This document shows positions 18,406-58,410 of a DNA stretch of 64,000 nucleotides, one piece after another. The DNA comes from Thermoanaerobaculia bacterium (GTDB taxonomy: Bacteria > Acidobacteriota > Thermoanaerobaculia > Thermoanaerobaculales > Sulfomarinibacteraceae). The first letter of the stretch is position 1. Every line of letters begins with the position of its first letter. The stretch is taken from the NCBI GenBank assembly GCA_027061805.1, contig JAMOWA010000008.1, positions 86-64,085 on the forward strand. The letters run 5' to 3'. A model generated the notes under the pieces. The model had not been told where the DNA came from, ran no database searches, and worked only from the letters and a program-made list of their open reading frames with translations. Both the position numbers and the translations under genes were made by a program.

Positions 18406-18640
18406 GTGGTGGTGCTCGGGGACGACCACGCCTGGATCCTGTGCCGGCCAGGCTTTCCAGCCGGAGTCGCGGTGGACCCGGGGGAGGCAGGACCCGTGGT
18501 GGAGGTCCTGGGGCGCCTCGGCCTCGGTGCGGCCGGAATCCTGCTGACGCACCATCACGCGGACCACATCGTGGGGGCCGGCTCCGTGGCCGGGACCTTC
18601 CGGTGCCCGGTCCGTGGTCCGCCGGGCACAGCGATTGCAA
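18406..18640 (+). pseudogene. N-terminal remnant of hydroxyacylglutathione hydrolase (GloB, MBL fold), about 75 codons only
   Basis: VVVLGDDHAWIL..AVDPGEAGPVVEVLGRLGLGAAGILLTHHHADHIVG..CPVRGPPGT matches the first third of GloB, including THHHxDH. Similarity stops where the sigma54 promoter begins, and the remaining about 170 codons are absent. Confidence 0.6.
18624..18639 (+). promoter_or_regulatory. Candidate sigma54 (-24/-12) promoter P1
   Basis: GGGCACagcgaTTGCA: GG and GC at canonical spacing versus TGGCACG-N4-TTGCW. 25 bp upstream of ATG 18664. Confidence 0.55.
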
Positions 18641-18663
18641 GGAGCCGGACCGGGTGGTGCGAC

Positions 18664-18921
18664 ATGAAGCGATTTGCCAACAACGGCCGTTCCGGTGTTC
18701 CGACCTGCTCCTCGTGCCGGCACTTCTGTGACGATCCCCAGCGGTTGGAGAAGATGTTTGCGGGCATTCTGGTTCTCTCCTCCACCTACGGCTCCACGAG
18801 GGGAAGGGCCGGGGTCTGCGGCATCCACCAGAGGTTCCACGATCCCGAGCCGGCATGTTCCGATTTCGTACCACGAACCGGGTGTTTCCAGGAGGTGGCT
18901 CAGGATGTTACTGATCAGTAA
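18664..18921 (+). CDS. Small Cys-rich protein of unknown function (85 aa, six Cys)
   Basis: MKRFANNGRSGVPTCSSCRHFCDDPQRLEKMF...LSSTYGSTRGRAGVCGIHQRFHDPEPACSDF. First ORF after P1. In frame with the gloB remnant but unrelated to it. Confidence 0.5.
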   Translation: MKRFANNGRSGVPTCSSCRHFCDDPQRLEKMFAGILVLSSTYGSTRGRAGVCGIHQRFHDPEPACSDFVPRTGCFQEVAQDVTDQ

Positions 18922-18922
18922 C
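18907..18922. promoter_or_regulatory. GTTAC-N6-GTAAC palindrome (copy 1)
   Basis: GTTACtgatcaGTAAC. Overlaps the stop codon of the small Cys-rich ORF, 53 bp upstream of ATG 18975. Confidence 0.6.
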
Positions 18923-18974
18923 GTTGGGAACCCCGTGAAACCGTCCTTGTGCCCCGATTCACGAGGAGGACGCC

Positions 18975-21107
18975 ATGGCTGAACCCGCCGTGCGGCCGGT
19001 TTCGCCCGTCGAGTGGCACCCCCTGGGTCTTCCGGAGGGGCGGGAGCGCCCCGTGGAACGCCTCGCCCGGGAGATCCTCGAACGGTGCCGGGGTGAGGGT
19101 CCGGCCAACTGTGTCGCGCGCTGTCCGCTCCACGTGGACGCTCGGGGCTACGTCCAGCTGACGGCACAGGGGAAGTACCGGGAGGCCCTGCAGCTGGTCC
19201 GGGAGAGGCTGCCCTTTCCCGGCGTGCTGGGCTATGTCTGCGCCCATCCCTGTGAGGCCCACTGCAAGCGGATCGACGAGGACGAGCCTGTCAGGATCCG
19301 TGACATCAAGCGGTTTCTCGCCGAATGGGAGCCGGGCGAGCCGCAGCACCTCGTGGACTGCGAGCCCGACCGGGGACGCAGCGTGGCCGTGGTGGGGGCC
19401 GGTCCCGCCGGGCTCCTGGCGGCCCACGACCTCCGCCGGAGGGGATATGCGGTCACGGTGTTCGAACGGACCGACCGGATCGGTGGATGCCTCGTGTGGA
19501 AGATTCCGCCCTACCGTCTCCCCAGGAAGGTCGTGGAGCGGGACCTCTCGGTGATCGCGGCCCTGGGGATCCCCGTGGAGACGGGGGTCGAGGTGGGGGC
19601 AGACGTGGCGCTGGAGGAGCTCAGGGAACGCTTCGATGCGGTGCTCCTCCTGGTGGGGCGGGAGGGAGCCGTCCGGATCCTGTCCCACACCGACCCCGGA
19701 CTGGTGACGCCCGAGGGCCGTCTCCGCGTGGATCCCCTCACCTGTTCCACGGCGCTGGAGGGCGTGTTCGCGGGCGGTGACGCGGTGAGTGGCCCCGGGA
19801 CCGTGATCTCCGCGCTGGCGCTGGGCCGCAGGGCGGCCGGGTCCGCCATGAGGTTCCTCGAGGGGCGAGACCTCCAGGAGGATCGCGAGCCTCTGCTGCC
19901 CCCGAGACTGCTCTGGACGCTGGAGATCCCCGAGAGCGAACGGAAGCGCCGCCAGCGGACTCCGGTGATGCTCACGCCACCGCCACCTCCGCTCGACGAG
20001 GCTGCGGCGCGGGAGGAGGCGGAACGGTGCCTGGACTGCACCTGTGGCCTCTGCGTCCGGGACTGCGAGTTCCTCGAGGACCACTGCGACTCGCCGAAGG
20101 ACATCGCTCGGCGGGTGCTGGAGGATCCCGACGATCCCGGGGTGCTCAGGACCACCTATTCGTGCAACATCTGCTCGCTGTGCGCCGCGGTGTGTCCCGA
20201 GGGACTCGACACCGGGGCGCTCCTGCTGGAGGCCCGCCGGGAGGCCGTCCGCAGGGGCACGGGCCCCCTCCCGGTGCACAAGGGGATCGTGAGCTACTGG
20301 AAGGCCGGTGTGGGGAACACCTTCACCACCGTCATGCCGGAGCCCGGCCGCAGGACCAGCCGGCGGCTCTTCTTCACCGGGTGCGCGCTCCCCGCGGTCT
20401 CGCCGGCGAACACGCTCCGGATCTACGACGAGCTCAGGAAGCACTACCCGGGGACCGGCGTGATGATGTACTGCTGCGGGGCTCCGGTGGAGCTCCTGGG
20501 CATGGATGCGGAGTTCGACCGGACCCGCGAGGACATCCTCAGGCTTGCGGACCAGGTGGGTGCCGACGAGCTGGTGGCGGCATGCCCCGACTGTGCCCAC
20601 ACGCTGAAGGAGGCGGTCCCGGAGCTCACCATCACCACGGCATGGGAGCTGCTGGCTGGAAGGTGGCAGCCGCCGCGGCGCGAGGGTTCTCCGGCCGTCG
20701 CCATCCACGACTCGTGCAAGGCGCGGCACGCCCCGGAGATCACCAGCTCCGTCCGGAGGATCCTCCAGGACGGTGGCGCGGCCATCGAGGAGATCGAGTA
20801 CAACGGCGAGCTCGCGCGGTGCTGCGGCTTCGGCGGCATGATCTACCCGGTGGATCCCGAGCTCTCCCGGAGGGTCAGCCGCCGGAGGGCCGGGGAGACT
20901 CCCCTGCCCCAGGTGACCTACTGTGCGGGCTGCCGGATGGCCATCGCCGGGGTCGGGAAGCCGGCGGTCCACATCCTGGACTTCCTGATGAGCGATGACT
21001 GGGAGAAGGCGGCGGCGAAGAAGGCGCCGGGCTCCGTGACGCGGTATGCCAACCGTCTGAGAACCAAGTGGGCGTTCAGGCGGCTGAAGCCCCTCGCGAC
21101 GGACTGA
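18975..21107 (+). CDS. Fusion protein: GltD-like FAD oxidoreductase lacking the second (NAD(P)H) Rossmann domain + HdrC-like 2x[4Fe-4S] + HdrB/HdrD-like CCG domains
   Basis: N-terminus CVARCP..VCAHPCEAHC and VAVVGAGPAGL...GVFAGGDA. Centre CLDCTCGLCVRDC and CNICSLCAAVCP. C-terminus has CCG motifs MMYCCGAP and LARCCGFGG. Confidence 0.8.
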   Translation: MAEPAVRPVSPVEWHPLGLPEGRERPVERLAREILERCRGEGPANCVARCPLHVDARGYVQLTAQGKYREALQLVRERLPFPGVLGYVCAHPCEAHCKRIDEDEPVRIRDIKRFLAEWEPGEPQHLVDCEPDRGRSVAVVGAGPAGLLAAHDLRRRGYAVTVFERTDRIGGCLVWKIPPYRLPRKVVERDLSVIAALGIPVETGVEVGADVALEELRERFDAVLLLVGREGAVRILSHTDPGLVTPEGRLRVDPLTCSTALEGVFAGGDAVSGPGTVISALALGRRAAGSAMRFLEGRDLQEDREPLLPPRLLWTLEIPESERKRRQRTPVMLTPPPPPLDEAAAREEAERCLDCTCGLCVRDCEFLEDHCDSPKDIARRVLEDPDDPGVLRTTYSCNICSLCAAVCPEGLDTGALLLEARREAVRRGTGPLPVHKGIVSYWKAGVGNTFTTVMPEPGRRTSRRLFFTGCALPAVSPANTLRIYDELRKHYPGTGVMMYCCGAPVELLGMDAEFDRTREDILRLADQVGADELVAACPDCAHTLKEAVPELTITTAWELLAGRWQPPRREGSPAVAIHDSCKARHAPEITSSVRRILQDGGAAIEEIEYNGELARCCGFGGMIYPVDPELSRRVSRRRAGETPLPQVTYCAGCRMAIAGVGKPAVHILDFLMSDDWEKAAAKKAPGSVTRYANRLRTKWAFRRLKPLATD

Positions 21108-21118
21108 GGGAGGCGGGA

Positions 21119-23566
21119 ATGGGAGGTACGGTGACCATCACGGTGGACGGGCGGGAGGTGGAGGTGACACCGGGCAGGCTCCTGCTCGACGTCCTGAGGG
21201 AGCAGGGCATCCGGGTCCCGACACTCTGCCACGACGACCGCCTCAAACCCTACGGGGGATGCCGGCTCTGTGTGGTGGAGCGCAGGGACGGGCGTCCGGG
21301 GCTCGTGACGGCGTGCTCCACACCGGTCCAGCGGGGCATGATCATCGAGACATCGACCCCCGCCATCGACGAGGCGCGCCGACGCCAGCTCCAGCTGCTG
21401 GTGCTGGATCACCGCATGGAGTGCCCCACCTGCGAGCGGACGGGGGACTGCCGCTTCCAGGAGCTGATCTACGAGTACGGGATCCCGGAAGAACGCCTGC
21501 CCTTCGAGCGCCGGACCAGGCCGCGGGACGAGGGCTCCGCCGTGATCATCCGCGATCCGGAGAAGTGCATTCTCTGCGGCCGGTGCGTCCGGCTCTGCGA
21601 GGAGGTGCAGGGAGTGGCGGAGATCGGCATGGTGGGACGGGGCCTCGAGGCCCGGGTGGCCACGCTCCTCGACAGTCCGCTGGACTGCGAGTTCTGCGGC
21701 CAGTGCGTGAACGCCTGCCCCGTGGGGGCCCTGGTGGCCAGGCCCCACGCCACCGAGGTGCCCGCGTGGCTCCGCACGAGGGCCACCACCACCTGCTCCT
21801 TCTGCAGCTCGGGCTGCCAGGTGGAGGTGGAGACCTGGGATGGCCGGCTCCAGAACGTCACCGCCGACCCGGCGGCCGAGCCCAACCGGGGCAAGCTCTG
21901 CGCCAGGGGCTGGCTCGGATGGGACATCCTGGAACATCCCGAGAGGCTGACGACACCCCTGGTGCGCCGTGAAGGGCGCCTCGAGGAGGCCACCTGGGAG
22001 GAGGCGCTCGAGAGGGTCGCGGAGGCCCTCGGGGCGGCCCGTGACGGCGGCGGTGCGATCGCGGGCGTGGGGACGGCCCGCATGACCTGCGAGGACGCCG
22101 CCCTCTTCGGGCGGCTGCTGGCCGGGGAGCTGGGCGCCGCCACGGTGGAGGTGGGACCAACGGGTGGTGCGACGGCTCTGGCGGCCGGCATGGGGGCCGC
22201 CGTGGGTGCCGCGGCCTCCACCGCCACCTTCGAGGATCTTCGGGAGGCCGACCTGGTGCTGGTGCTGCGGGCCGACCCGGGCCGCACCCACCCCCTCGTC
22301 AAGACCGAGCTGGTCCAGGGGGCCGTCCAGAGGGGCCGTCCCTTCGTCCTGGCCCACTGTCTCTCGGGAGGTCTGGAGCGCCATGCGGCCGTTCACCTGT
22401 GCCTCCAGCCGGGGACCGACCACGTGCTTCTCCACGGAATGGCGCGTCTTGTGCTGGATCATCTCGACCGGACCCCCTCCGAGGGCACCGATGGCTTCGG
22501 GGCCTGGAGCGAGGCTCTCGGGGCCTACACACCCGATGTGATCGAACGGGTGACCGGGGTTGTCGAGGATGACCTCCGGGAGCTCGTGGACCGTCTTCTC
22601 GGGGCGGAACGCCCCCTGGTGGTGGTTCCCACCGGCCTCGGCATCCCCGGTGACGAGGCCCGGGTGGCCCGGGCCGCGGCGGAGCTCATGGGCCTGCTGG
22701 GCTGGAACGGAGCGCCCGGGGGCCGTGTGCTCGTGCTGGGGGAGAAGGCCAACCTGCAGGGCGTCCTGGCCTCCGGCCTGGGTCCCTCCCTCGGGGATGG
22801 GGAGCGCCGTCACCTCGAGGAGACCATGGCGGCGGCGGGCCTCGGACAGGTCCAGGTCCTCTACCTGGTGGGGGAGGACCCCGTGGGATCCTGGCCCCGG
22901 CGGTTCGCAGGGCGGGCCGCGGTCCGCGGAGCGCGTTTCGTGGTGGTGCAGGACGCCTTCGCCACGGCCACCACCCGCCTGGCGGACGTGGTGCTCCCCG
23001 TGGCGATCCTCGGGGAGCGCCGGGGGACGGTCGTGGGAGCGGACGGGGTCCCCAGGCGCCTCGAGAGGGTCCTGGAGCCGCCCGAGGGGCTGCCGCAGGA
23101 CGGCGAGCTCCTGGCCGCGCTGGCCGGGCGCCTGGGTGTGGATGTGGGGGACTGGCGGACCGCCGGGGCACCCGCGGCGACGGGGACCGATGCCCGCCCC
23201 GTGATCCGGTTCACACCGCCCGATCCGCCGGAGGAGATGCCACGCCACTCGGGCATGCTGCTGGACGCCTCCCCGCAACTGTTCCACTCGGGCCTGGTGA
23301 CGGCGTTCAGCGAGAGACTCCAGGAGCTGGCGCCCACCGTGGCCGCCCGCCTGGCGCCACGGGACGGACGGGAGGCCGGCATCTCCAACGGGGAGCAGGT
23401 CCGCGTGGCGGTGGACGGCAGGGAGCTCCTGCTCCGGGCCCGGTACGACCGGCGCGTCCGCCCCGGAACGGTGCTGGTGTCCTGGTCCGGTCTCGAAGAC
23501 GGTGCGGCCGGCGTCATGGACCACGATGCCGCTGCCACGCCTGCAGCCATCCGGAGGATGTCATGA
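21119..23566 (+). CDS. NuoG-like / HydA-FdhA-scaffold Fe-S subunit (2Fe-2S + 4Fe-4S clusters + degenerate molybdopterin-oxidoreductase fold)
   Basis: ATG 21119 (RBS GAGGGAGG). N-terminus ITVDGREV..CHDDRL..GGCRLC. Also HRMECPTCERTGDC, CILCGRCVRLC and CEFCGQCVNACP. Mo-domain cluster CSFCSSGC..KLCARG, but no recognisable Cys/Sec-His catalytic dyad. Confidence 0.8.
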   Translation: MGGTVTITVDGREVEVTPGRLLLDVLREQGIRVPTLCHDDRLKPYGGCRLCVVERRDGRPGLVTACSTPVQRGMIIETSTPAIDEARRRQLQLLVLDHRMECPTCERTGDCRFQELIYEYGIPEERLPFERRTRPRDEGSAVIIRDPEKCILCGRCVRLCEEVQGVAEIGMVGRGLEARVATLLDSPLDCEFCGQCVNACPVGALVARPHATEVPAWLRTRATTTCSFCSSGCQVEVETWDGRLQNVTADPAAEPNRGKLCARGWLGWDILEHPERLTTPLVRREGRLEEATWEEALERVAEALGAARDGGGAIAGVGTARMTCEDAALFGRLLAGELGAATVEVGPTGGATALAAGMGAAVGAAASTATFEDLREADLVLVLRADPGRTHPLVKTELVQGAVQRGRPFVLAHCLSGGLERHAAVHLCLQPGTDHVLLHGMARLVLDHLDRTPSEGTDGFGAWSEALGAYTPDVIERVTGVVEDDLRELVDRLLGAERPLVVVPTGLGIPGDEARVARAAAELMGLLGWNGAPGGRVLVLGEKANLQGVLASGLGPSLGDGERRHLEETMAAAGLGQVQVLYLVGEDPVGSWPRRFAGRAAVRGARFVVVQDAFATATTRLADVVLPVAILGERRGTVVGADGVPRRLERVLEPPEGLPQDGELLAALAGRLGVDVGDWRTAGAPAATGTDARPVIRFTPPDPPEEMPRHSGMLLDASPQLFHSGLVTAFSERLQELAPTVAARLAPRDGREAGISNGEQVRVAVDGRELLLRARYDRRVRPGTVLVSWSGLEDGAAGVMDHDAAATPAAIRRMS

Positions 23567-24174
23567 GCGAGCAGGTTCTGGAGCGGGCTCCGGCCCCGGC
23601 GGATCTCCCGGGCTTCTTCGGGGCCCACGAGCCGCTGCCCCGTGAGGATGTGGATCCGGCCATCTGGCCCTTCATCGACCGGTGGGTCGCGACCCATCGG
23701 GGTGGTCGGGAGCGCCTCATCCCGCTGCTTCACGCCATCCAGGAGCAGCTGGGATACCTGCCGTTCCCCGTCCAGGAGTACGTGGCGGAGAAGCTGGGCC
23801 TCTCGCCCATCCAGGTCTACGGGGTGGTGAGCTTCTACCACTTCTTCACCACCACGCCGCGGGGGAGGTACCAGCTCAAGGTGTGCATGGGAACGGCCTG
23901 CTTCGTCCGGCATGCCCAGAGCATCGTGGAGACCCTGAACGACGTGCTGGGGATCGGTGTGGGAGAGGTGACGGAGGACCGGATGTTCAGCCTGGAACAG
24001 GTGCGGTGCATCGGGGCCTGCGGCCTGGCACCCGCCATGATGGTCAACGACGAGGTGCACGGCAACCTGACGAGGAACGACGTGAGGCGGCTGGTCCGCC
24101 GCCTCCGGGCGAAGGAGCGCAAGGCGGCTGCGAAGGCTGCCGGGGAGGCCGACGGTGGCACGGACGAGCAGTGA
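23563..24174 (+). CDS. nuoE: NuoE/HydC-like thioredoxin-fold [2Fe-2S] subunit
   Basis: 203 aa. YQLKVCMGTACFVRH ... VRCIGACGLAPAMMVND, typical of the NuoE/HoxE/HydC family. Family-level call only. Confidence 0.85.
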   Translation: MSEQVLERAPAPADLPGFFGAHEPLPREDVDPAIWPFIDRWVATHRGGRERLIPLLHAIQEQLGYLPFPVQEYVAEKLGLSPIQVYGVVSFYHFFTTTPRGRYQLKVCMGTACFVRHAQSIVETLNDVLGIGVGEVTEDRMFSLEQVRCIGACGLAPAMMVNDEVHGNLTRNDVRRLVRRLRAKERKAAAKAAGEADGGTDEQ

Positions 24175-26074: not shown

Positions 26075-26455
26075 ATGGCGACCAAGACGATCCTGCTGGT
26101 GGACGACGACGAGATCTTCGTGGAGGCCGTCTCGGCGGTTCTCGAGGGACGGTACCGCGTGATCACGGCGGCAAACGGGACCGAGGGCCTGGCGAGGGTG
26201 CGGGAGGACCGTCCCGACCTCATCGTGCTCGACGTGATGATGGATCACCTCTCCGAGGGGTTCGACGTGGCGCGGAGCCTCAGGAACGACCCGGACCTGG
26301 CCGGGATTCCCATCATCATGCTGACGGGCGTGGACCAGGTGTACAACGTCCGCATGGAGGTGGACGAGTCCTGGGTGCCGTGCGAGAAGTATCTGGAGAA
26401 GCCCATCGCCCCCGATGAGCTCCTGGCGCACGTGGCCGAGCTGATCGGGGAGTGA
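26075..26455 (+). CDS. Stand-alone CheY-like receiver protein (no output domain)
   Basis: 126 aa. ILLVDDDE ... LIVLDVMM ... KP motifs. Confidence 0.85.
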   Translation: MATKTILLVDDDEIFVEAVSAVLEGRYRVITAANGTEGLARVREDRPDLIVLDVMMDHLSEGFDVARSLRNDPDLAGIPIIMLTGVDQVYNVRMEVDESWVPCEKYLEKPIAPDELLAHVAELIGE

Positions 26456-27903: not shown

Positions 27904-27975
27904 GGCGCCCGCCAGCATTCACTCCTGGATACTCCTAATCCATTGAGGATCAGTTGGTTGCCGCTGCGAATGGAG

Positions 27976-27991
27976 TGGTATGTCCCTTGCA
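27976..27991 (+). promoter_or_regulatory. Candidate sigma54 promoter P2
   Basis: TGGTATGtcccTTGCA, canonical GG-N10-GC spacing, 62 bp upstream of the rhodanese ATG. Confidence 0.65.
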
Positions 27992-28052
27992 ACCGGGTGG
28001 AACAAGCGGAGGGTTCCTCCGCCGTGTGGGAAACCAGCAAAGGAGGACGGAC

Positions 28053-29033: not shown

Positions 29034-29123
29034 CCACATGATCTCCGATCCCCCGGGGCCCGGCCGGGTCCCGGGGGGCCGTGCCTCCCGGCCGCCGGGG
29101 GGCGGATTTCGAGGGGGCGAAGC

Positions 29124-35220: not shown

Positions 35221-35263
35221 GATTTCTTCACCGGCGGTCCCCTGTGGGACCGGGGGAGGGAGC

Positions 35264-36697: not shown

Positions 36698-36707
36698 GGA
36701 GGGCGTG

Positions 36708-42096: not shown

Positions 42097-42151
42097 GGCA
42101 CGGGGGGAAAACAGGACCTGCGGGTCTGGGGAGACAAGGAAAGGAGTTGCC

Positions 42152-43345: not shown

Positions 43346-43354
43346 GAGGTATCC

Positions 43355-44431
43355 ATGGCTGTGGCAACCAGAAAGACGGACATCGGACCGCCGAATTACA
43401 AGCAGTTCCTTCCGCCCATCATCCAGAAGAACTACGGCAAGTGGGCGTACCACGAGATCCCCGAGCCGGGCGTCATGGTGCACGTGGCCGAGTCGGGCGA
43501 CAAGCTCTACACGGTCCGGGCGGGCACGCCTCGCCTGCTGGCCATCACCACCATCCGGGCGTTCGCGGACCTGGCGGACAGGTACTGTGACGGGTACATC
43601 CGCTGGACCAGCCGGCACAACGTGGAGTTCCTCCTGACCGATCCCTCGAAGATTCCGGCGCTCAAGAAGGACCTGGAGGAGCTGGGATTCCCGGTGGGCG
43701 GTACGGGCAACGCCATCTCCTCCATCGTCCACACCCAGGGGTGGGTCCACTGCCACTCCGCGGCCACGGACGCCTCCGGGGTGGTGAAGAGCCTCATGGA
43801 CGAGCTCTTCCCTCACTTCGTCAACATGGACCTGCCCGCCAAGCTCCGGGTGGCCTTTGCCTGCTGCCTGAACATGTGCGGCGCGGTGCACTGCTCCGAC
43901 ATCGCGGTCCTGGGCGTCCACACCAGGGCACCCACCATCGACCACGACGAGCTGCCCAAGGTCTGCGAGGTGCCGACCCTGGTCTCCTCCTGCCCCACCG
44001 GCGCCATCCGGCCGGCCACCGTGGACGGCAACGCCTCGGTGGAGATCGAGGAGGAGCAGTGCATGTACTGCGGCAACTGCTACACTGTCTGCCCCTCGGT
44101 GAAGATCAACAACGCCGAGACCGACGGCATCTCCATCTGGGTGGGCGGCAAGGTCTCCAACGCCCGCTCGGAGCCCAAGTTCTCCAAGCTCGCCATCCCG
44201 TACCTCCCCAACAATCCGCCGCGCTGGCCGGAGGTTGTGGAGGCGGTGGTCAACATCGTCAACGTCTACGCCCAGAACGCCCGGAAGCACGAGCGCCTGG
44301 GAGAGTGGATCGACCGCATCGGCTGGCCGCGCTTCTTCGAGCTCACCGGCATTCCGTTCACCAAGTACCACATCGACGACTTCAAGCACGCCGGCGAGAC
44401 CTACAAGCGGTCCGTCCAGCTGAAGCACTAG
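43355..44431 (+). CDS. dsrB: Dissimilatory sulfite reductase beta subunit
   Basis: [43 protein letters not shown], and ferredoxin domain [18 protein letters not shown]. Confidence 0.95.
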
Positions 44432-44440
44432 GAGGCGATC

Positions 44441-44689
44441 ATGAGTCAACCCACCGTGGAAGAGGTCGCCGACGCCATGTATGACCTGGTGAAGGCCACC
44501 CATGGCAAGAAGAACCTCAAGGCCATGGACCTCACCAAGGCCATGATCGAGAAGTTCGGCGACGACGCCGTGGACAAGAAACTGTGCAAGCTCGCGATCC
44601 GCCAGCTCATCGACTCGGGCCGGTGCATCTACAGCTACTTCGGTGGGTCGTTCATCACCCTGCCACCGGACGAGGATTCCGGGGGCTGA
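44441..44689 (+). CDS. dsrD: DsrD (small winged-helix protein of reductive-type dsr operons)
   Basis: 82 aa directly after dsrB. Lys-rich N-terminal part and a C-terminal ..LIDSGRCIYSYFGGSFITL segment comparable to the DsrD ..LEYWSSGSTTMYGL region. Call rests on size, position and pattern. Confidence 0.7.
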   Translation: MSQPTVEEVADAMYDLVKATHGKKNLKAMDLTKAMIEKFGDDAVDKKLCKLAIRQLIDSGRCIYSYFGGSFITLPPDEDSGG

Positions 44690-44698
44690 TGTCGAACC

Positions 44699-44733
44699 GT
44701 ACGGGGGCCGGGGTGCCCGGCCCCCGTACTTTT
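44699..44733 (+). terminator. Very strong hairpin + T-tract after dsrD (terminator/attenuator or mRNA-stabilising element)
   Basis: 14-bp perfect GC-rich stem gtacgggggccggg/cccggcccccgtac, 3-nt loop, then TTTTCC. Only 18 nt before the next ATG. Confidence 0.7.
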
Positions 44734-44751
44734 CCTACCAGGAGGCACAGC

Positions 44752-45195
44752 ATGGCCAAGGACAAGATGAGCGGTCCGGAACGCGTGGAACATACGATCC
44801 AGGTGCTTCGCGACTGGCAGAAGCTGGAGCGGGAAGCCATCGAGAACACCGCCGAGATCATGGAGAAGACCGGCAACCCGCTGATCCGGCAGTTCATGGA
44901 GATCATCCGCAACGACTCGGTGCAGCACCACCGGGTGCAGCAGTTCATCATCGACAGTCTCACCACCACGCCGGTGAAGCTGACGCCCGACGATCTCGCC
45001 GAGGTCTGGGACGCCATCGCGGCCCATGACGAGGTGGAGCGCAGGACCATCGAGATCGCCAAGGAGCTCAAGGAGGAGTGCCGCTTCTTCGTGCAGAAGG
45101 CCCTCCTGGAGTACCTGATCATCGACGAGGAGAAGCACGACCACCTCCTCGGCATGCTCGAGGAGTTCAAGAAGAAACTGTATCCCTACGGCTGA
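44752..45195 (+). CDS. Ferritin-like/rubrerythrin-like four-helix protein of unknown function
   Basis: 147 aa, all-helical. AGGAGG RBS. Paired acidic/His segments (EAIENTAE, VQHH, DEVE, EEKHDH). Family assignment is tentative. Confidence 0.5.
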   Translation: MAKDKMSGPERVEHTIQVLRDWQKLEREAIENTAEIMEKTGNPLIRQFMEIIRNDSVQHHRVQQFIIDSLTTTPVKLTPDDLAEVWDAIAAHDEVERRTIEIAKELKEECRFFVQKALLEYLIIDEEKHDHLLGMLEEFKKKLYPYG

Positions 45196-45232
45196 CCGTT
45201 CCGGCAGGGAGTGGGACGGGGGAGGCGTTCAG

Positions 45233-46975
45233 ATGGGTCTGTTGAAGAAGAAGGACACGAAGAAATCCAAGAGCCGCATGGCCCGGCTGGCGGGCGGCGG
45301 GGGTGGTTCGGGATCCGAGATCTCGCCGCTGAGGCCACAGTACGTGGAGAAGCTGCCCCCCTGCGTGGGGCACTGCCCCTCGGGGAACGACATCCGTGGC
45401 TGGCTGACCATCGTCGCCCAGCGTGACAAGCTCGGGCTCTCCATGGAGGAGGCCTGGGACCGCGCCTGGAGGATCGAGGTGGAGACCAACCCGTTCCCCG
45501 CCGTGATGGGGCGGGTGTGTCCCCATCCCTGCGAGGGCGAGTGCAACCGCAAGGTCAAGGACGGCGCGGTGGCCATCAACTCGGTGGAGCGCCTTGTGGG
45601 GGACTGGGGCCTCGAGCGGGGCCTCGCGCTTCCCACGCTGGACGTGGGAGGGCCCTTCGCCGAGAAGATCGCCGTGATCGGCGCCGGCCCCTCGGGGCTC
45701 TCGGTGGCGTACCAGCTGGCCCGCCGCGGCTACGGCGTGACCGTCTTCGAGGCCCTGCCCCATCCCGGCGGCATGCTCCGGTACGGGATCCCGGTCTACC
45801 GGCTGCCCCGGGAGGTCCTGGACGCCGAGATCCAGAAGATCCTCGACCTCGGCGTGGAGCTCCGCTGCGGTGTCAGGGTGGGTGAGGACATTCCCCTGGA
45901 CGAGCTGCGCAAGGAGTTCTCGGCCATCTACCTGGGCATCGGCGCCCACCAGGGCCGGAAGATGGGCATCCCGGGCGAGGACGGCGAGGGCGTCTACACC
46001 GGGACCGAGTTCCTCAGGCGGGCCAACGCCGGGGAACCTGTGACCGCGGGTGAGCGGGTGGTCATCATCGGTGGCGGCGACACGGCCGTGGATGCCGCCC
46101 GCGTCTCCAAGCGCCTCACCGCCGACTCGGCGGCCGTCTCGAAGCGGGCGGGCGCCCAGGTGACGATCCTGTACCGCCGGACCCGGGCCGAGATGCCGGC
46201 CATCGAACGCGAGATCGAGGAAGCCCTGGAGGAGGGAATTGAGATCGAGTTCCTTGCGGCACCCATCAAGATCGAGCGGGACGCCGACGGGAAGGTGACG
46301 AAGATGATCGTCCAGCGGATGGAGCTCGGGGAACCCGACGAGTCGGGCCGCCGGCGCCCGGTTCCCGTGGAGGGCGACACCTTCGAGCTGGAATGCGACA
46401 CGGTGATCATGGCCGTCAGCCAGCAGCCCGAGCTGGCACCGCTGGCCAGGGCCCTCGGCGTGGAGGGTTCCTGGCTGGACTCCGACGAGTGGGGCCGCAC
46501 CGGCATCGACGGCATCTGGGCCGGTGGCGATGCCCTGGGCCTGGGCCTGGCCACCATCTCCATCGGCCAGGGCCGCAAGGCGGCCGAGTCCATCCACGCC
46601 ACGCTCCGCGGGGAGGAGCTGCCCGAGGGCGACACGCGGCCGCCCATCGGGCCCGACGGCCTCAAGATCGACTGGTACCCGCCCCTCGAGCGGAACGAGA
46701 GGACCGTGCTCTCCCCCGAGGAGAGGCTGGCCCGGCCGCTCGACGAGATCGATCTGGGGATCACCAGGGAGCAGGGCCTGGACGAGGTGATGCGCTGCTT
46801 CTCCTGCGGCCTGTGCTTCAACTGCGAGAACTGCTGGATGTACTGCCAGAACTCGTGCTTCAAGAAGGTGCCCGATCCCAGCCCCGGCAACTACTACACC
46901 ATCAGCCTCGGCACCTGTGACGGGTGCAAGAAGTGCTGGGAGGAGTGCCCCTGCGGGTACCTCGAGGGGCACTAG
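45233..46975 (+). CDS. dsrL: DsrL (GltD-like NAD(P)H:acceptor oxidoreductase with C-terminal ferredoxin domain)
   Basis: CVGHCP..VCPHPCEGEC. Two Rossmann motifs, VIGAGPSG and VVIIGGGDTAVDAA. C-terminal CFSCGLCFNCENC and CDGCKKCWEECP. Confidence 0.85.
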   Translation: MGLLKKKDTKKSKSRMARLAGGGGGSGSEISPLRPQYVEKLPPCVGHCPSGNDIRGWLTIVAQRDKLGLSMEEAWDRAWRIEVETNPFPAVMGRVCPHPCEGECNRKVKDGAVAINSVERLVGDWGLERGLALPTLDVGGPFAEKIAVIGAGPSGLSVAYQLARRGYGVTVFEALPHPGGMLRYGIPVYRLPREVLDAEIQKILDLGVELRCGVRVGEDIPLDELRKEFSAIYLGIGAHQGRKMGIPGEDGEGVYTGTEFLRRANAGEPVTAGERVVIIGGGDTAVDAARVSKRLTADSAAVSKRAGAQVTILYRRTRAEMPAIEREIEEALEEGIEIEFLAAPIKIERDADGKVTKMIVQRMELGEPDESGRRRPVPVEGDTFELECDTVIMAVSQQPELAPLARALGVEGSWLDSDEWGRTGIDGIWAGGDALGLGLATISIGQGRKAAESIHATLRGEELPEGDTRPPIGPDGLKIDWYPPLERNERTVLSPEERLARPLDEIDLGITREQGLDEVMRCFSCGLCFNCENCWMYCQNSCFKKVPDPSPGNYYTISLGTCDGCKKCWEECPCGYLEGH

Positions 46976-46996
46976 GGCAGGGTCCGGGGGAAGGCG

Positions 46997-48400
46997 ATGC
47001 AACTCGAGACACCCCGCGTGGTGGTGGCCGGTCTGGCCGGGGACAGCGGCAAGACGCTGGTGACCCTCGGCCTGGCCCGGGCCCTCACCGTGAGGGGTGT
47101 CCGTGTTGCACCGTTCAAGAAGGGGCCCGACTTCATCGACACGGGCTGGCTTTCCGCCGCTGCGGGAACCGTGGCCCGGAACCTGGACACCTTCCTGATG
47201 CCGCCGGAGGGGATCGGCGAGGCCGTGGCCCGGTCGCTGCCCGCCGACCTGGTCCTCGTGGAGGGCAACCGCGGGCTCTACGACGGCATGGATGCTGCGG
47301 GCAGCTGCTCCACGGCCGAGCTGGCGGTGCTCCTGGGGGCGCCGGTGCTCCTGGTGGTCGATGTCACCAAGAGCACACGGACCGTGGCGGCCCTGGTGAA
47401 GGGGTGCCAGGTGCTGGATCCCCGGGTGGACCTGGCCGGCGTGATCCTCAACCGGGTGGGGACCGCCCGCCAGGAGCGTGTGATCCGCGACGCCATCGCC
47501 GCCGCGGGCGGTCCGCCGGTGGTGGGCGCCATCCCCCGGATGCGGGGAGAGGATCCCCTGCCGGGACGGCACCTGGGTCTCGTCACGGCCGTGGAGCGAC
47601 CGGACAGCGAGGCGGCCGTGGAACGGGCCGCTGCCGTGGTGGCGGAGCACGTGGACCTGGAGGCCGTGCTGGCCGTCGCCCGCACCGCGGGGCGGGTGGA
47701 GCTTCCGGAGATGTCCATGACCACCGGACGGAGGGCCACCCGCGTGGCGGTCTTCAGGGACGAGACCTTCAGCTTCTTCTACCCCGAGAACCTGGAGGCC
47801 CTGGAGGCGGGGGGGGCGGAGCTGCTCTGGGTCTCGCCCCGGCAGGACCGGCCGCTGCCCCCGGACGTGGATGCCGTCTACATCGGTGGAGGCTTCCCCG
47901 AGCTGGCGGTGCGGGAGCTGTCCGCGACCTCCGAGCTCAGGGACTCCCTGGCCGGGGCGTGTTCACGGGGGCTGCCGGTCTTCGCCGAGTGCGGCGGCCT
48001 GATGCTCCTCGCCCGCGAGCTGGTGGTGGACGGGACCGCCTGGCCCATGCTCGGGGTCCTGGACCTGGTGGTGGAGCACACGGACAGGCCCCGGGGACAC
48101 GGGTACGTCCTGGGGACGGTGGACCGCCCCAACCCCTTCTTCCCCGTCGGACAGGAGATCAGGGGCCACGAGTTCCACTACTCTCGGGTGGTGGGCGGGA
48201 GTGACCGGAACACCACGGTGATGACGCTCCAGCGCGGGACCGGTGTGGAGGCGGGACGTGACGGTGTGGTGCGGGGCAACATCTGGGCCTCCTACACCCA
48301 CCTCCACGCCCTGGGAACGGTCATCTGGGCCGGAGGCTTCCTCGAGGCCGCGGTGTCGTGGCACAACGACGGGCCGGGGACGGCCGTGGCATGGGCCTGA
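46997..48400 (+). CDS. dsrN: DsrN (cobyrinate a,c-diamide synthase family; siroheme amidase in dsr context)
   Basis: 467 aa. CbiA-type N-terminus VVVAGLAGDSGKT and a C-terminal glutamine amidotransferase domain (ECGGLM). Confidence 0.85.
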   Translation: MQLETPRVVVAGLAGDSGKTLVTLGLARALTVRGVRVAPFKKGPDFIDTGWLSAAAGTVARNLDTFLMPPEGIGEAVARSLPADLVLVEGNRGLYDGMDAAGSCSTAELAVLLGAPVLLVVDVTKSTRTVAALVKGCQVLDPRVDLAGVILNRVGTARQERVIRDAIAAAGGPPVVGAIPRMRGEDPLPGRHLGLVTAVERPDSEAAVERAAAVVAEHVDLEAVLAVARTAGRVELPEMSMTTGRRATRVAVFRDETFSFFYPENLEALEAGGAELLWVSPRQDRPLPPDVDAVYIGGGFPELAVRELSATSELRDSLAGACSRGLPVFAECGGLMLLARELVVDGTAWPMLGVLDLVVEHTDRPRGHGYVLGTVDRPNPFFPVGQEIRGHEFHYSRVVGGSDRNTTVMTLQRGTGVEAGRDGVVRGNIWASYTHLHALGTVIWAGGFLEAAVSWHNDGPGTAVAWA

Positions 48401-48909
48401 AGGAGCAGGTCATGGAGCTTCTCGCGGCAGGGCGCCAGGACGAGCTCGCCGGGCTTGCCGCCGGGAACCGGAGGGTGGTCCGTCACCTGGTGGGACGCCT
48501 GTGGGATCCGGACCCCGTGGTCCGGCGGGCGGCGGCCCGGGCCCTTGGCGAGGCGGCGGCCCTCCATCCGGACCTGGGCCGCGACGTGGTGCGGCGCCTG
48601 CTGTGGGCGCTCAACGACGAGTCCGGGGCGGACGGCAGGGATGGCCTGCTGGGCCTGGGCTGGATCGGCCGCGCCGCACCGGGGCTGCTGGCCCCGCACG
48701 TGGGTGCCCTGGTGGAGATGGCCTGGGACGACGGGCTCAGGGTCCGCCTCCTGGAGGCCCTGTGCGTGGCGGCGGAGGGTGCACCGGAGCTGCTCGAGCC
48801 GCACGTGGATCGGCTCGGGGAATGGATCGACGAATCCAATGACGACGAGGTCCGCCTGTGGCAGCGGCTCAGGGCCCTCGTCGAAGGGGGGGGCACACAT
48901 GCCAGCTGA
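48391..48909 (+). CDS. HEAT-repeat protein
   Basis: ATG 48391 overlaps the dsrN stop. DPDPVVRRAAARALGEAA-type repeats. Confidence 0.6.
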   Translation: MGLKEQVMELLAAGRQDELAGLAAGNRRVVRHLVGRLWDPDPVVRRAAARALGEAAALHPDLGRDVVRRLLWALNDESGADGRDGLLGLGWIGRAAPGLLAPHVGALVEMAWDDGLRVRLLEALCVAAEGAPELLEPHVDRLGEWIDESNDDEVRLWQRLRALVEGGGTHAS

Positions 48910-49489
48910 GAGCCTGAAGGAACGGATCGAACGGTGCCGGGCCCGGGTGGAGGAGAAACCGGACTCCGCCGTGGCCCACTACAACCTGGGTCTTGCCTAC
49001 ACCCAGCGGGGCTACGTGGACCGGGCGGAGGCCGAGTACCTCAGGGCCGTGGAGCTGGACCCGTCGCTGGGGGAGGCCTGGATCAACCTCGGGGGCGCCC
49101 GGCTGCTCAAGTGGGACTTCGAGGGGGCGCTGGAGGCCGTGAAGCGGGGCGTGGAGCTCCGGGACGACCACCCCGTGGCCCACTACAACCTCGGGCAGGC
49201 GTGCCTCTACCTGGGCGATGCCGAGGGCCTCGTGGCGGCCAACCGGCGGGTCATCGAGCTGGAGCCGGAGAACGGCGCCGCCCACTACTTCCTGGCAGTG
49301 GGGCTCCTGGCCCTGGAACGCCGGCAGGAGGCCGAGGCCGCGCTGTCCCGGGCCATGGCCCTGGGGCACCGGCCGTCACCCGAGTTTCTGAAGAAGCTCA
49401 ACCGGCCTCCCGCGCAGGGGCCGGCAACCCTGACTCTGAACGAACAATCGGGAGCCGCCGAGGCCCCAGGAACAGAAAAGGAGGTTTGA
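48899..49489 (+). CDS. TPR-repeat protein
   Basis: ATG 48899. Repeated AHYNLGLAY / AWINLGGA / AHYNLGQA / AHYFLAVG TPR signatures. Confidence 0.75.
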   Translation: MPAESLKERIERCRARVEEKPDSAVAHYNLGLAYTQRGYVDRAEAEYLRAVELDPSLGEAWINLGGARLLKWDFEGALEAVKRGVELRDDHPVAHYNLGQACLYLGDAEGLVAANRRVIELEPENGAAHYFLAVGLLALERRQEAEAALSRAMALGHRPSPEFLKKLNRPPAQGPATLTLNEQSGAAEAPGTEKEV

Positions 49490-49490
49490 G

Positions 49491-49808
49491 ATGCCCACAT
49501 TCACGTACGGAGATCTCTCGATCGAGGTGGACGAGGACGGCTTCATGCAGGAGCCGGAGCAGTGGAACGAGGAGGTGGCCAAGGCACTGGCGACGACGGA
49601 AGGTGTCGATGAGCTCACCGACGAGCACTGGAAGGTCGTCAACTACCTTCGGGAATACTACCTCCAGTTTGGCGTGGCTCCCATGATCCGCAAGCTCTGC
49701 AAGGAGACCGGCTTCAACCTGAAGAAGATCTACGAGCTCTTCCCCTCCGGTCCGGCCAAGGGCGCCTGCAAGGTGGCGGGGCTGCCCAAGCCCACCGGCT
49801 GCGTCTGA
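49491..49808 (+). CDS. dsrC: DsrC (TusE/DsrC/DsvC family) with both conserved C-terminal cysteines
   Basis: 105 aa. Ends CKVAGLPKPTGCV (Cys-x10-Cys-Val). Strong RBS AAAGGAGG. Confidence 0.95.
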   Translation: MPTFTYGDLSIEVDEDGFMQEPEQWNEEVAKALATTEGVDELTDEHWKVVNYLREYYLQFGVAPMIRKLCKETGFNLKKIYELFPSGPAKGACKVAGLPKPTGCV

Positions 49809-49833
49809 CGGCCACGCATTCGCCGAACGGGAG

Positions 49834-49860
49834 CCGCGGCCTCCGGGCCGCGGTTTTCTT
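49834..49860 (+). terminator. Rho-independent terminator after dsrC
   Basis: Stem ccgcggcc/ggccgcgg, loop tccg, followed by TTTTCTT. Confidence 0.75.
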
Positions 49861-58407: not shown

Positions 58408-58410
58408 GGC

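What the first reader, a model, noticed from the sequence alone, without database searches (positions are those of the whole stretch)
18624..49860. A 31-kb self-contained dissimilatory sulfur island bracketed by gene stumps, with no mobility genes
The island lies between the gloB stump (18406-18640) and an RdhA-like stump (49940-50135, minus strand). All 29 ORFs between them are on the plus strand and relate to sulfur or electron transfer: Bfu/Hdr-like complex, rhodanese, two DsrMK modules, DsrOP/cytochrome, transporter, dsrABD, dsrL, dsrN and dsrC. Repeat-family loci lie just outside (16.7-17.1 kb and 51.5-52.3 kb). No integrase, transposase, tRNA or direct-repeat att sites were seen, so the acquisition mechanism is unclear. 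No sat/aprAB/qmo genes are in the window. The encoded metabolism could therefore be sulfite, thiosulfate or sulfur reduction, or disproportionation, rather than complete sulfate reduction, unless those genes lie elsewhere.
Basis: partly seen in the sequence, partly recalled or inferred. Interest (0 to 1): 0.65.

Follow-up and report, generated by a model that had tools for sequence, protein, structure and literature searches.

The report
Conserved acidobacterial sulfite-reduction gene cluster, not island
The 31-kb block is a real, one-strand cluster of dissimilatory sulfite-reduction (dsr) genes, but relatives carry it at the same chromosomal spot beside recA, so it is an inherited locus whose two bordering gene stumps are small local deletions, not scars of an acquired island.

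Summary
About 28 plus-strand genes (18664-49808) run from a NuoEFG-like/GltD-HdrD complex to dsrC. They lie between an N-terminal gloB fragment and a C-terminal RdhA-like fragment. No mobility genes, real tRNA or sat/apr/qmo genes are in the window.

The island interpretation fails. A sister MAG (94-95% nucleotide identity) has the same order on both sides: DsbA-like, intact gloB, cluster, dsrC, intact RdhA-like gene, DUF6599, membrane protein. Relatives at 86%, 71% and 69% identity of the first cluster protein also place the cluster after recA and the DsbA-like gene.

The stumps are deletions in this lineage. One removed 594 bp between imperfect ~26-bp direct repeats. The other removed 1,154 bp with a 5-bp microhomology. 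A third stump of the same kind (alpha/beta hydrolase, 12278-12486) lies 6 kb outside the cluster.

Codon usage of cluster and flanks is indistinguishable (r = 0.995). The "flanking" repeat family occurs at six intergenic loci in the window.

The gene set (dsrAB, DsrD-like, dsrL type 2, dsrN, dsrC, two dsrMK modules) matches published acidobacterial dsr clusters.

Verdict: an ordinary new member of a known kind. The conserved upstream NADH-linked Hdr-like module is the only mildly novel part.

The parts
15680..16708 (+). recA, the conserved left-hand landmark of the locus
   Evidence: Pfam RecA E 1e-140. recA precedes the DsbA-like gene and the cluster in L084, L086 and L090/L091.
16772..17114 (.). 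Intergenic repeat array (hexamer-period CACGGN runs plus GGGGAGCA octamers). One of six such loci in the window.
   Evidence: The orthologous recA-DsbA spacer in L084 is only 119 bp and lacks the array.
17206..18345 (+). DsbA-like exported thioredoxin-fold protein, a conserved left neighbour
   Evidence: Pfam Thioredoxin_4/DSBA. Identity is 94% in L082, 83% in L084 and 56% in L086, always upstream of the cluster.
18406..18640 (+). gloB pseudogene: only the N-terminal ~77 codons remain. The deletion junction is at 18602-18626.
   Evidence: TIGR03413 profile positions 6-80/248. Intact 251-aa and 269-aa gloB genes occupy this position in L082 and L084. The 594 bp of L082 1613-2206 is missing, and the junction lies in a ~26-bp imperfect direct repeat that is present twice in L082.
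18664..18921 (+). Conserved 85-aa Cys-rich small ORF, the first gene of the cluster. Here it is in frame with the gloB remnant.
   Evidence: tblastn identity: 94% L082, 65% L084, 54% L086, 51% L006. It is called as an 85-aa gene in L090. No Pfam hit.
18975..26065 (+). Soluble NuoEFG-like NADH module plus a GltD-like flavoprotein fused to an HdrD-type CCG domain (four genes: 18975-21107, 21119-23566, 23563-24174, 24155-26065)
   Evidence: Pfam and NCBIfam hits: NF045663 at 527 bits, NuoG, NuoE and NuoF domains. CCG Cys motif present. The module is conserved in L082, L084, L086, L090 and L092.
26075..27903 (+). Two-component system 1 (response regulator and PilS-type membrane histidine kinase)
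   Evidence: It always follows the NuoF-like gene in relatives.
27954..29882 (+). Exported double-rhodanese sulfurtransferase (27954-29033) and DedA/VTT membrane protein (29124-29882)
   Evidence: Pfam, NCBIfam sulfurtransferase hits, N-terminal hydrophobic signal/anchor and a CQSGVR active-site motif.
30190..32702 (+). DsrM1-DsrK1 module
   Evidence: Nitrate_red_gam fold. The DsrK model NF045796 is the best hit at 344 bits (cut-off 400). CCG motif present.
32716..40083 (+). Variable inner module: HEAT protein, response regulator, PAS histidine kinase, DsrK2, DsrM2, DsrO-like protein, and DsrP fused to a six-haem cytochrome c domain
   Evidence: The module is present in L007, partly present in L002, and absent in L003 and L005, where DsrK1 is followed directly by the YeiH-like gene.
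40450..49808 (+). Conserved core operon: YeiH-like transporter, dsrA, dsrB, 82-aa DsrD-like gene, 147-aa unknown, dsrL (type 2 features), dsrN, HEAT protein, TPR protein, dsrC
   Evidence: TIGR02064 at 595 bits and TIGR02066 at 515 bits, both above cut-off. Same gene order in L002-L013. DsrC ends CKVAGLPKPTGCV and DsrL carries a YRR motif. The DsrD-like model is a winged helix.
49829..49860 (+). Strong GC-rich hairpin followed by a T-run after dsrC, read as an intrinsic-terminator-like end of the operon
   Evidence: Fold energy -39 kcal/mol, z = -5.4. The consensus scan did not list it.
49899..50162 (-). RdhA-like pseudogene. The 3' end (residues ~371-457, with a frameshift) is joined directly to the gene's 5' leader. 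The junction is at 50090-50094.
   Evidence: TIGR02486 C-terminal match. An intact 457-aa gene lies at the same place in L087 (TIGR02486 E 5e-41). L087 10648-11801 is missing, with a 5-bp ACCCG overlap. tblastn confirms the retained residues.
50265..51500 (.). Conserved right-hand neighbours: DUF6599 protein (+, 50265-50786) and a membrane protein (-, 50793-51500)
   Evidence: Same order after the RdhA-like gene in L087, at 76% and 94% identity. An independent Logan contig, L088, is 100% identical over 49682-51631.
12278..12486 (-). Third deletion stump (alpha/beta hydrolase remnant) in the left flank, 6 kb from the cluster
   Evidence: An intact 256-aa gene lies at this position in L084. Only residues 9-54 and 214-256 are recovered in the window.

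Best explanation
This is a vertically inherited chromosomal dsr 'supercluster' of a high-GC Acidobacteriota lineage. It sits at a fixed position downstream of recA and a DsbA-like gene.

Proposed mechanism, inferred from the families involved:
- DsrAB, with siroheme amidated by DsrN, reduces sulfite together with DsrC to a DsrC trisulfide.
- The small winged-helix DsrD-like protein acts as the allosteric activator of DsrAB.
- DsrL, which has type-2 features, feeds NAD(P)H electrons to DsrAB.
- The two DsrMK-type modules regenerate DsrC at their CCG sites using the quinone pool. One of them is extended by a DsrO-like protein and a DsrP-hexahaem fusion.
- The NuoEFG-like/GltD-HdrD complex probably links NADH to a cytoplasmic disulfide or trisulfide substrate.
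- The exported rhodanese, DedA and YeiH-like proteins handle sulfur-compound transfer or transport.
- Two two-component systems regulate the cluster.

The two bordering stumps are unrelated to acquisition. They are short deletions inside neighbouring genes (gloB and an RdhA-like gene), mediated by short repeats or microhomology, in this particular population. They are part of a wider pattern of small deletions in the region.
For: Shared flanks:
- The sister MAG GCA_053998595.1 has DsbA-like, intact gloB, small ORF, then the cluster (L082).
- The same MAG has dsrC, intact RdhA-like(-), two SLH genes, DUF6599 and the membrane protein(-) (L087).
- L084 (86% identity of the first cluster protein) has OmpR, OmpH, AhpC, hydrolase, sulfatase-like, recA, DsbA, gloB, then the cluster.
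- L086 and L090/L091 (69-71%) have recA, ADH, DsbA, (small ORF), then the cluster through to DsrM. L086 is the same contig as L005, which continues to dsrC.

Co-divergence:
- Sister MAG: flank proteins 94%, cluster proteins 94-100%.
- L084: RecA 95%, DsbA 83%, cluster 82-86%.
- L086/L005: RecA 88%, DsbA 56%, cluster 56-91%.

Composition: synonymous codon usage of cluster versus flanks r = 0.995; GC3 0.919 versus 0.897.

Deletion anatomy. A third stump lies at 12278-12486.

Taxonomy: the 13 best DsrA matches are all Acidobacteriota (72-89%), and other phyla reach at most 76%.

Conservation and function:
- The core gene order is conserved in L002-L013.
- Published acidobacterial clusters carry the same genes, including dsrL with dsrD and dsrM2K2 (10.1101/197269, PMC8528874, PMC10591310). 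DsrD is described as an activator in PMC8794893.
Against: - Only one very close relative is available, and it is split over two contigs, so continuity of its cluster is inferred.
- More distant relatives differ downstream of dsrC. Most have dsrT-dsrMK(J) there and L005 has unrelated genes. The right flank is therefore conserved only at short evolutionary range.
- The inner module 32716-40083 is present in some relatives and absent in others, so some module gain or loss has occurred.
- An ancient transfer of dsr genes into this phylum is not excluded.
- The DsrD assignment rests on position, size and fold class, not on a significant sequence match.
- All functional steps are inferred from homology. 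The direction of the pathway (reductive or oxidative) cannot be read from the sequence.
Confidence: 0.85

Rival explanations
1. Recently acquired genomic island. A 31-kb block inserted between gloB and an rdhA-like gene and truncated both.
For: Both border genes are truncated. All genes are co-oriented. GC dips to 0.64 at 40-45 kb. Repeat arrays lie near both ends.
Against: - The sister genome has both border genes intact with the cluster already between them.
- The missing pieces are internal deletions of 594 and 1,154 bp at short repeats.
- The left flank is conserved down to about 70% identity.
- Codon usage is identical to the flanks. The GC dip is in codon positions 1 and 2 only; GC3 there is 0.93-0.94.
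- There are no mobility genes, tRNA or att repeats.
- The repeats are dispersed and lie outside conserved neighbour genes.
Confidence: 0.03
2. Mosaic locus. The position next to recA is ancestral, but the present 31-kb content was assembled by gain or exchange of modules among related Acidobacteriota. Candidate modules are the 7.4-kb HEAT/RR/PAS-HK/DsrK2M2OP block and the loss of a downstream dsrT-dsrMKJ block. The dsr core itself may have entered the phylum by ancient lateral transfer.
For: - L003 and L005 lack 32716-40083. L002 lacks DsrM1K1 but has DsrK2M2OP. L007 has HEAT-RR-HK-DsrK2M2OP.
- Most relatives carry dsrT-dsrMK(J) after dsrC, while the window and L005 do not.
- DsrA homologues at 66-76% identity occur in Myxococcota, Gemmatimonadota, Zixibacteria, Ignavibacteria and Planctomycetota.
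- The Nuo/Hdr-like module occurs without dsr neighbours in L092.
Against: The direction of change (gain versus loss) cannot be determined from the loci in hand. No junction scars or mobility genes are seen at the module borders. Composition is uniform.
Confidence: 0.35
3. The stumps are assembly artefacts: collapsed or chimeric joins in a metagenome contig.
For: The sequence is metagenome-derived. The left junction is seen only in the window and in an ENA contig of the same organism.
Against: - The right junction is reproduced exactly in an independent Logan assembly of another run (L088, 100% over 1,950 bp).
- The junction repeats (26 bp imperfect, 5 bp) are far shorter than the assembly k-mer implied by the contig name (k141).
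- The RdhA-like remnant also carries an extra frameshifting indel, which is typical of decay.
Confidence: 0.04

Closest known systems
dsr gene clusters of DsrAB-encoding Acidobacteriota: peatland SbA MAGs (Hausmann et al., 10.1101/197269); Ca. Sulfomarinibacter, Thermoanaerobaculia (Flieder et al., PMC8528874); survey by Diao et al. (PMC10591310)
   Same: Reductive-type dsrAB is followed by dsrD. dsrL co-occurs with dsrD, and the DsrL has the YRR motif of type 2. dsrN and a dsrC with both cysteines are present, as are dsrMK(JOP) and a second dsrM2K2 pair. All best DsrA matches are acidobacterial MAGs.
   Different: - This cluster is larger (28 genes).
- It is preceded by a NuoEFG-like/GltD-HdrD complex, a Cys-rich small ORF, an exported rhodanese and DedA.
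- It carries two two-component systems.
- DsrP is fused to a six-haem domain.
- It has no dsrT-dsrMKJ block after dsrC, unlike most relatives.
- I did not find this upstream module described in the papers I read.
FlxABCD-HdrABC and other NuoEF-containing flavin-based (Bfu-type) complexes of sulfate reducers. This comparison rests on my own knowledge and was not tested here.
   Same: A NuoE/NuoF-type NADH-binding module is combined with an Hdr-type CCG disulfide-reductase domain and encoded with dsr genes. This suggests NADH-dependent reduction of DsrC or a related disulfide or trisulfide.
   Different: There is no HdrA. The CCG domain is fused to a GltD/NfnB-like flavoprotein (NF045663 family, 527 bits against a cut-off of 530). 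A NuoG/FdhA-like molybdopterin-fold subunit is present. Bifurcation and substrate are untested.
Genomic islands (integrase- or tRNA-associated acquired blocks)
   Same: A large co-oriented block devoted to one function, with truncated genes at both borders.
   Different: The block is present at the same site in relatives. It has native composition, no mobility genes and no att repeats. The border truncations are internal deletions of neighbour genes.

Membership tests
Acquired genomic island | Absent from, or differently located in, close relatives (empty site) | tested here: not met
   The cluster has the same neighbours on both sides in the sister MAG. The left flank is the same in relatives at 86%, 71% and 69% identity.
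Acquired genomic island | Atypical base composition or codon usage relative to the flanks | tested here: not met
   Codon-usage r = 0.995. GC3 is 0.919 against 0.897. Tetranucleotide correlation is 0.93-0.98 across the window.
Acquired genomic island | Integrase, transposase or other mobility genes, a tRNA target, and flanking direct repeats | tested here: not met
   No such Pfam family was found in any supported ORF. Rfam finds no tRNA. The only long repeats are a dispersed intergenic family at six loci.
Dissimilatory sulfite reductase pathway (reductive-type Dsr cluster) | DsrA and DsrB | tested here: met
   TIGR02064 at 595 bits (cut-off 393) and TIGR02066 at 515 bits (cut-off 341.5).
Dissimilatory sulfite reductase pathway (reductive-type Dsr cluster) | DsrC with the two C-terminal cysteines | tested here: met
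   PF04358 E 6e-41. The C-terminus is ...CKVAGLPKPTGCV.
Dissimilatory sulfite reductase pathway (reductive-type Dsr cluster) | DsrMK membrane module with a CCG catalytic domain | tested here: inconclusive
   DsrK (NF045796) is the best model for both copies, but they score 344 and 278 bits, below the cut-off of 400. The CCG motif is present. The partner proteins have the NarI-like fold of DsrM.
Dissimilatory sulfite reductase pathway (reductive-type Dsr cluster) | DsrD (marker of reductive operation) | tested here: inconclusive
   The 82-aa ORF sits directly after dsrB and is conserved in 14 loci. It has no significant hit to Pfam DsrD, to PDB DsrD or in hhalign. The AF2 model (pLDDT 82) is a winged helix that matches MarR, Fur and Z-alpha domains. 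This is the fold class reported for DsrD (PMC8794893).
Dissimilatory sulfite reductase pathway (reductive-type Dsr cluster) | DsrL of type 2 (NADP(H)-type YRR motif) | tested here: met
   NF009410 at 587 bits (cut-off 516). A YRR motif is at residue 314 and a C-terminal ferredoxin-like Cys cluster is present. The motif criterion is taken from PMC8528874. No DsrL phylogeny was made.
Complete dissimilatory sulfate reduction | sat, aprAB, qmoABC | not testable with these tools
   None of these genes is in the 64-kb window. Published acidobacterial MAGs include both sulfite-only and full sulfate-reduction gene sets, and in most peatland MAGs sat/apr/qmo lie on scaffolds other than dsr (10.1101/197269, PMC8528874).
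gloB (hydroxyacylglutathione hydrolase) | Full-length MBL fold with the HAGH C-terminal domain | tested here: not met
   Only profile positions 6-80 of 248 are present, at 52.9 bits against a cut-off of 200.8. The sister's orthologue scores 270.7 bits. The window copy is a pseudogene.
Reductive dehalogenase family (RdhA-like) | Full-length catalytic domain with two Fe-S motifs | tested here: not met
   Only profile positions 266-311 of 314 are present. The sister's 457-aa orthologue scores 141 bits, below the cut-off of 160, so it is RdhA-like rather than a proven dehalogenase.
NuoEF-type (Bfu/Flx-like) NADH-dependent Hdr complex | NuoE, NuoF and NuoG-like subunits plus a CCG-domain subunit encoded together | tested here: met
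   The four genes are conserved together in six independent relatives.
NuoEF-type (Bfu/Flx-like) NADH-dependent Hdr complex | Electron bifurcation, or DsrC as the substrate | not testable with these tools
   This needs biochemistry.

The most novel reading that the evidence does not exclude
The most novel reading concerns the upstream unit: the 85-aa Cys-rich protein, the GltD-HdrD fusion, the NuoG/E/F-like subunits and their dedicated two-component system, usually with an exported rhodanese and a YeiH/DedA-type membrane protein. It could be a previously undescribed soluble NADH-dependent, possibly electron-bifurcating, reductase for DsrC trisulfide or another sulfane carrier. That would give these Acidobacteriota a membrane-independent route from NADH into the Dsr pathway. 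The unit travels as a block and also occurs without adjacent dsr genes (L092).
Probability: 0.25. Interest if true: 0.55.

Novelty: new member of a known kind. Interest (0 to 1): 0.22.

Why it matters
It removes a false lead. There is no cryptic mobility mechanism to explain, because the dsr cluster is a stable, inherited locus beside recA in this acidobacterial lineage. That fits dissimilatory sulfur metabolism being an inherited trait of this group rather than a recent acquisition.

The comparison also shows how truncated genes arise here. Small deletions at short repeats left at least three stumps in 64 kb.

Finally, it flags a conserved NADH-linked Hdr-like module next to dsr genes that has not, to my knowledge, been characterised. 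It could bear on how DsrL-containing, DsrD-containing bacteria couple NAD(P)H to sulfite reduction.

Tried and rejected
- The ARAGORN tRNA-Pro at 46673-46748(-) was considered as a possible integration target. It was rejected because it lies inside dsrL and Rfam gives no hit at gathering threshold.
- The repeat arrays at 16.8-17.1 kb and 51.5-52.3 kb were considered as att-like island ends. They were rejected because the family occurs at six intergenic loci, lies outside conserved neighbour genes, and is absent from the orthologous spacers of L084.
- The GC dip at 40-45 kb was considered as a transfer signal. It was rejected because GC3 stays at 0.93-0.94 and codon usage is native.
Only the fold class is supportive.
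A single-sequence model was used instead.
- The look-up of the right-most window gene found nothing on record, so the window could not be extended to search for sat/apr/qmo.
- The consensus terminator scan missed the hairpin after dsrC, but folding supports it.
- One Pfam call failed on a wrong frame. The needed identifications came from NCBIfam instead.

Full report
**What is in the sequence**

The window is about 70% G+C, so raw ORF lists are dominated by spurious frames. Filtering ORFs by third-position GC gave a clean gene set, which I annotated with Pfam and NCBIfam.

Between 18664 and 49808 there are 28 genes, all on the plus strand, in this order:
- a conserved 85-aa Cys-rich ORF;
- a GltD-like flavoprotein fused to an HdrD-type CCG domain (NF045663, 527 bits), then NuoG/FdhA-like, NuoE-like and NuoF-like subunits;
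- a response regulator and a histidine kinase;
- an exported double rhodanese and a DedA protein;
- DsrM and DsrK;
- a HEAT protein, a second response regulator and a PAS kinase;
- a second DsrK and DsrM, a DsrO-like protein, and a DsrP with a C-terminal six-haem domain;
- a YeiH-like transporter;
- DsrA and DsrB, both above their equivalog cut-offs;
- an 82-aa DsrD-like protein and a conserved 147-aa unknown;
- DsrL, DsrN, a HEAT protein, a TPR protein and DsrC.

DsrC has both functional cysteines and DsrL carries the YRR motif. A strong hairpin with a T-run follows dsrC. No sat, aprAB or qmo gene and no integrase or transposase is present in the window. The one tRNA called by ARAGORN lies inside dsrL. 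Rfam does not support it.

**The stumps are real**

- Residues encoded at 18406-18640 match only positions 6-80 of the 248-position gloB model.
- The minus-strand stretch around 49946-50125 matches only the last 46 positions of the reductive-dehalogenase model.

The factual part of the finding is therefore confirmed, with 28 genes rather than 29.

**Origin of the window**

Exact-protein look-ups place the window in an ENA metagenome assembly (ERZ27262658). DsrA's 13 best matches among GTDB species representatives are all Acidobacteriota MAGs at 72-89% identity. They include Vicinamibacterales, Thermoanaerobaculales and Ca. Sulfomarinibacteraceae. Other phyla reach at most 76%.

**Test of the island idea: the left side**

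I searched homologues of the first large cluster protein and fetched their contigs.
- A sister MAG (GCA_053998595.1, 96% identity) shows DsbA-like, an intact 251-aa gloB, the small ORF, then the cluster (L082).
- A relative at 86% (GCA_054027355.1) shows OmpR, OmpH, AhpC, hydrolase, sulfatase-like, recA, DsbA-like, a 269-aa gloB, then the cluster (L084). This is the window's own left flank.
- Relatives at 69-71% show recA, ADH, DsbA-like, (small ORF), then the cluster as far as DsrM (L086, L090/L091). L086 is the same contig as L005, where the cluster continues to dsrC.

**Test of the island idea: the right side**

The window's DsrC is identical to that of the sister MAG. The sister contig reads dsrC, an intact 457-aa RdhA-like gene on the minus strand, two SLH-domain genes, DUF6599, a membrane protein, then a four-helix-bundle gene within repeat arrays (L087). 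The RdhA-like gene matches TIGR02486 at E 5e-41.

The window has the same order without the middle of the RdhA-like gene and without the SLH genes. Both flanks are therefore shared with relatives that already carry the cluster.

**Anatomy of the stumps**

Left stump:
- Nucleotide alignment shows that L082 1613-2206 (594 bp, the C-terminal two-thirds of gloB) is missing from the window.
- The junction at 18602-18626 falls in a ~26-bp imperfect repeat that is present on both sides of the lost segment in L082.

Right stump:
- L087 10648-11801 (1,154 bp) is missing, with a 5-bp overlap (ACCCG) at 50090-50094.
- This joins the 3' end of the RdhA-like gene to its own 5' leader.
- The remnant also carries a frameshifting indel.

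Further changes:
- L087 from about 11875 to 14861, holding the two SLH genes, is replaced by 215 bp in the window. The direction of that change cannot be determined.
- A third stump of the same kind lies 6 kb left of the cluster. It is an alpha/beta hydrolase that is intact in L084 and reduced in the window to residues 9-54 and 214-256 at 12278-12486.

Stumps are thus a regional pattern of small deletions, not markers of the cluster's borders.

An independent Logan assembly of another run reproduces the right junction exactly (L088). This argues against an assembly artefact there. The left junction is supported only by the window and the ENA contig.

**Composition and divergence**

Synonymous codon usage of cluster genes against flank genes correlates at r = 0.995. 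The two flanks correlate with each other at r = 0.990. GC3 is 0.919 in the cluster and 0.897 in the flanks. The GC dip at 40-45 kb comes from codon positions 1 and 2 of the YeiH-like, DsrA and DsrB genes.

Protein identities to each relative are of the same order inside and outside the cluster:
- sister MAG: 94% for DsbA and the membrane protein, 94-100% for cluster proteins;
- L084: RecA 95%, DsbA 83%, cluster 82-86%;
- L086/L005: RecA 88%, DsbA 56%, cluster 56-91%.

**The repeats**

The hexamer-period arrays occur at six intergenic loci in the window: 7-92, 577-790, 947-1164, 9858-10228, 16772-17114 and 51.5-52.3 kb. They consist of CACGGN runs, with GGGGAGCA octamers and GTGAGGG/CCCTCAC runs.

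The orthologous spacers in L084 are 23 and 119 bp and lack the arrays. The arrays also lie outside conserved neighbour genes of the cluster. They are a dispersed, lineage-specific repeat family and do not bracket the cluster in any specific sense.

**What varies among relatives**

The core order is identical in L002-L013: YeiH-like, dsrA, dsrB, DsrD-like, 147-aa unknown, dsrL, dsrN, HEAT, TPR, dsrC.

Upstream content is modular:
- L003 and L005 go from DsrK1 straight to the YeiH-like gene.
- L002 has DsrK2M2OP but not DsrM1K1.
- L007 has HEAT-RR-HK-DsrK2M2OP.
- The window has both modules.

Most relatives carry dsrT-dsrM-dsrK(-J) after dsrC, whereas the window and L005 do not. Some module gain or loss within the phylum has therefore happened, but I cannot determine its direction.

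The Nuo/Hdr-like unit, with its two-component system, a rhodanese and a YeiH-like gene, also occurs without dsr neighbours in a more distant genome (L092).

**Function**

The gene set matches what has been published for DsrAB-encoding Acidobacteriota: reductive-type dsrAB with dsrD, dsrL of type 2, dsrN, dsrC, dsrMK(JOP) and a second dsrM2K2 (10.1101/197269; PMC8528874; PMC10591310).

The mechanistic outline follows the literature on these families and is inferred here, not shown:
- DsrAB and DsrC form a trisulfide.
- DsrK-type CCG sites regenerate DsrC.
- DsrL supplies NAD(P)H electrons.
- DsrD acts as an allosteric activator (PMC8794893).

The DsrD assignment is the weakest link. No sequence method linked the 82-aa protein to DsrD. 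Its position, size and conservation and its predicted winged-helix fold agree with DsrD.

Whether the organism reduces sulfate cannot be decided from the window. In published acidobacterial MAGs both sulfite-only and full sulfate-reduction gene sets occur.

**Verdict**

This is an ordinary, if large, member of the known acidobacterial dsr clusters. It is inherited at a fixed locus beside recA, and the neighbouring genes were eroded by small deletions.

The only part with some novelty is the conserved NuoEFG-like/GltD-HdrD unit with its Cys-rich small protein. I did not find it described in the papers read. It could be an NADH-linked route to DsrC reduction, but that is a hypothesis.

Noticed in passing
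window 7-92, 577-790, 947-1164, 9858-10228, 16772-17114, 51530-52270: A dispersed intergenic repeat family. It consists of hexamer-period CACGGN runs, GGGGAGCA octamer runs and, at 51.5/52.2 kb, inverted GTGAGGG/CCCTCAC heptamer runs. The orthologous spacers in the 86% relative L084 are only 23 and 119 bp, so the arrays are lineage-specific expansions. Their nature is unknown.
   Followed up: partly
window 110-448 (-); L087 16638-16988: A four-helix-bundle ('23S rRNA intervening sequence protein', TIGR02436) gene sits between repeat arrays at the window's left end. In the sister MAG a 73%-identical paralogue sits inside the arrays at the position that corresponds to window 51.5-52.3 kb, where the window has arrays only. 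The gene and the arrays may move or be lost together.
   Followed up: partly
window 12278-12486 (-): Remnant of an alpha/beta hydrolase gene between the AhpC and sulfatase-like genes. The gene is intact (256 aa) in L084. This is a third deletion stump in the window.
   Followed up: yes
window 18664-18921 (+): A conserved 85-aa Cys-rich ORF (TC..CRHF.DDP..LEK.F...LSS.YGSTRG..G.C...F.DPE..C.DF) heads the cluster in five relatives and precedes the YeiH-like gene and dsrAB in L006. It matches no known family. In the window the gloB deletion puts it in frame with the gloB remnant (ORF 18406-18921).
   Followed up: partly
window 44752-45195 (+): A conserved 147-aa protein lies between the DsrD-like gene and dsrL in nearly all acidobacterial relatives (47-79% identity). 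It gives only a weak rubrerythrin-like hit (E 0.01). Its function is unknown.
   Followed up: partly
window 37415-40083 (+): The DsrO-like protein starts directly at its first Fe-S motif, with no signal peptide visible. DsrP (10 predicted transmembrane segments) is fused to a C-terminal domain with six CxxCH motifs, in place of a separate three-haem DsrJ.
   Followed up: partly
window 49861-49880; L087 10370-10410: The octamer GTGAAGAG just after the dsrC hairpin is present once in the window but four times in tandem in the sister MAG. This is a small variable-number repeat.
   Followed up: no
L092 1-22133 (contig_7436, 1.9 Mb): The GltD-HdrD/NuoGEF-like genes with their response regulator and kinase occur with a rhodanese, a YeiH-like gene and a radical-SAM/methyltransferase gene, next to a siroheme synthase gene. 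No dsr genes lie within 10 kb. The unit is therefore separable from dsr.
   Followed up: no
window 46673-46748 (-): ARAGORN calls a tRNA-Pro(CGG) inside the dsrL coding sequence. Rfam gives no tRNA hit, so it is probably a false positive caused by high GC.
   Followed up: yes
window 57544-59190 (-): Two adjacent DUF2148 ferredoxin-domain genes lie within an acyl-CoA ligase, acyl-CoA dehydrogenase, thiolase and SDR cluster next to a sigma-54 activator in the right flank. I did not examine this further.
   Followed up: no
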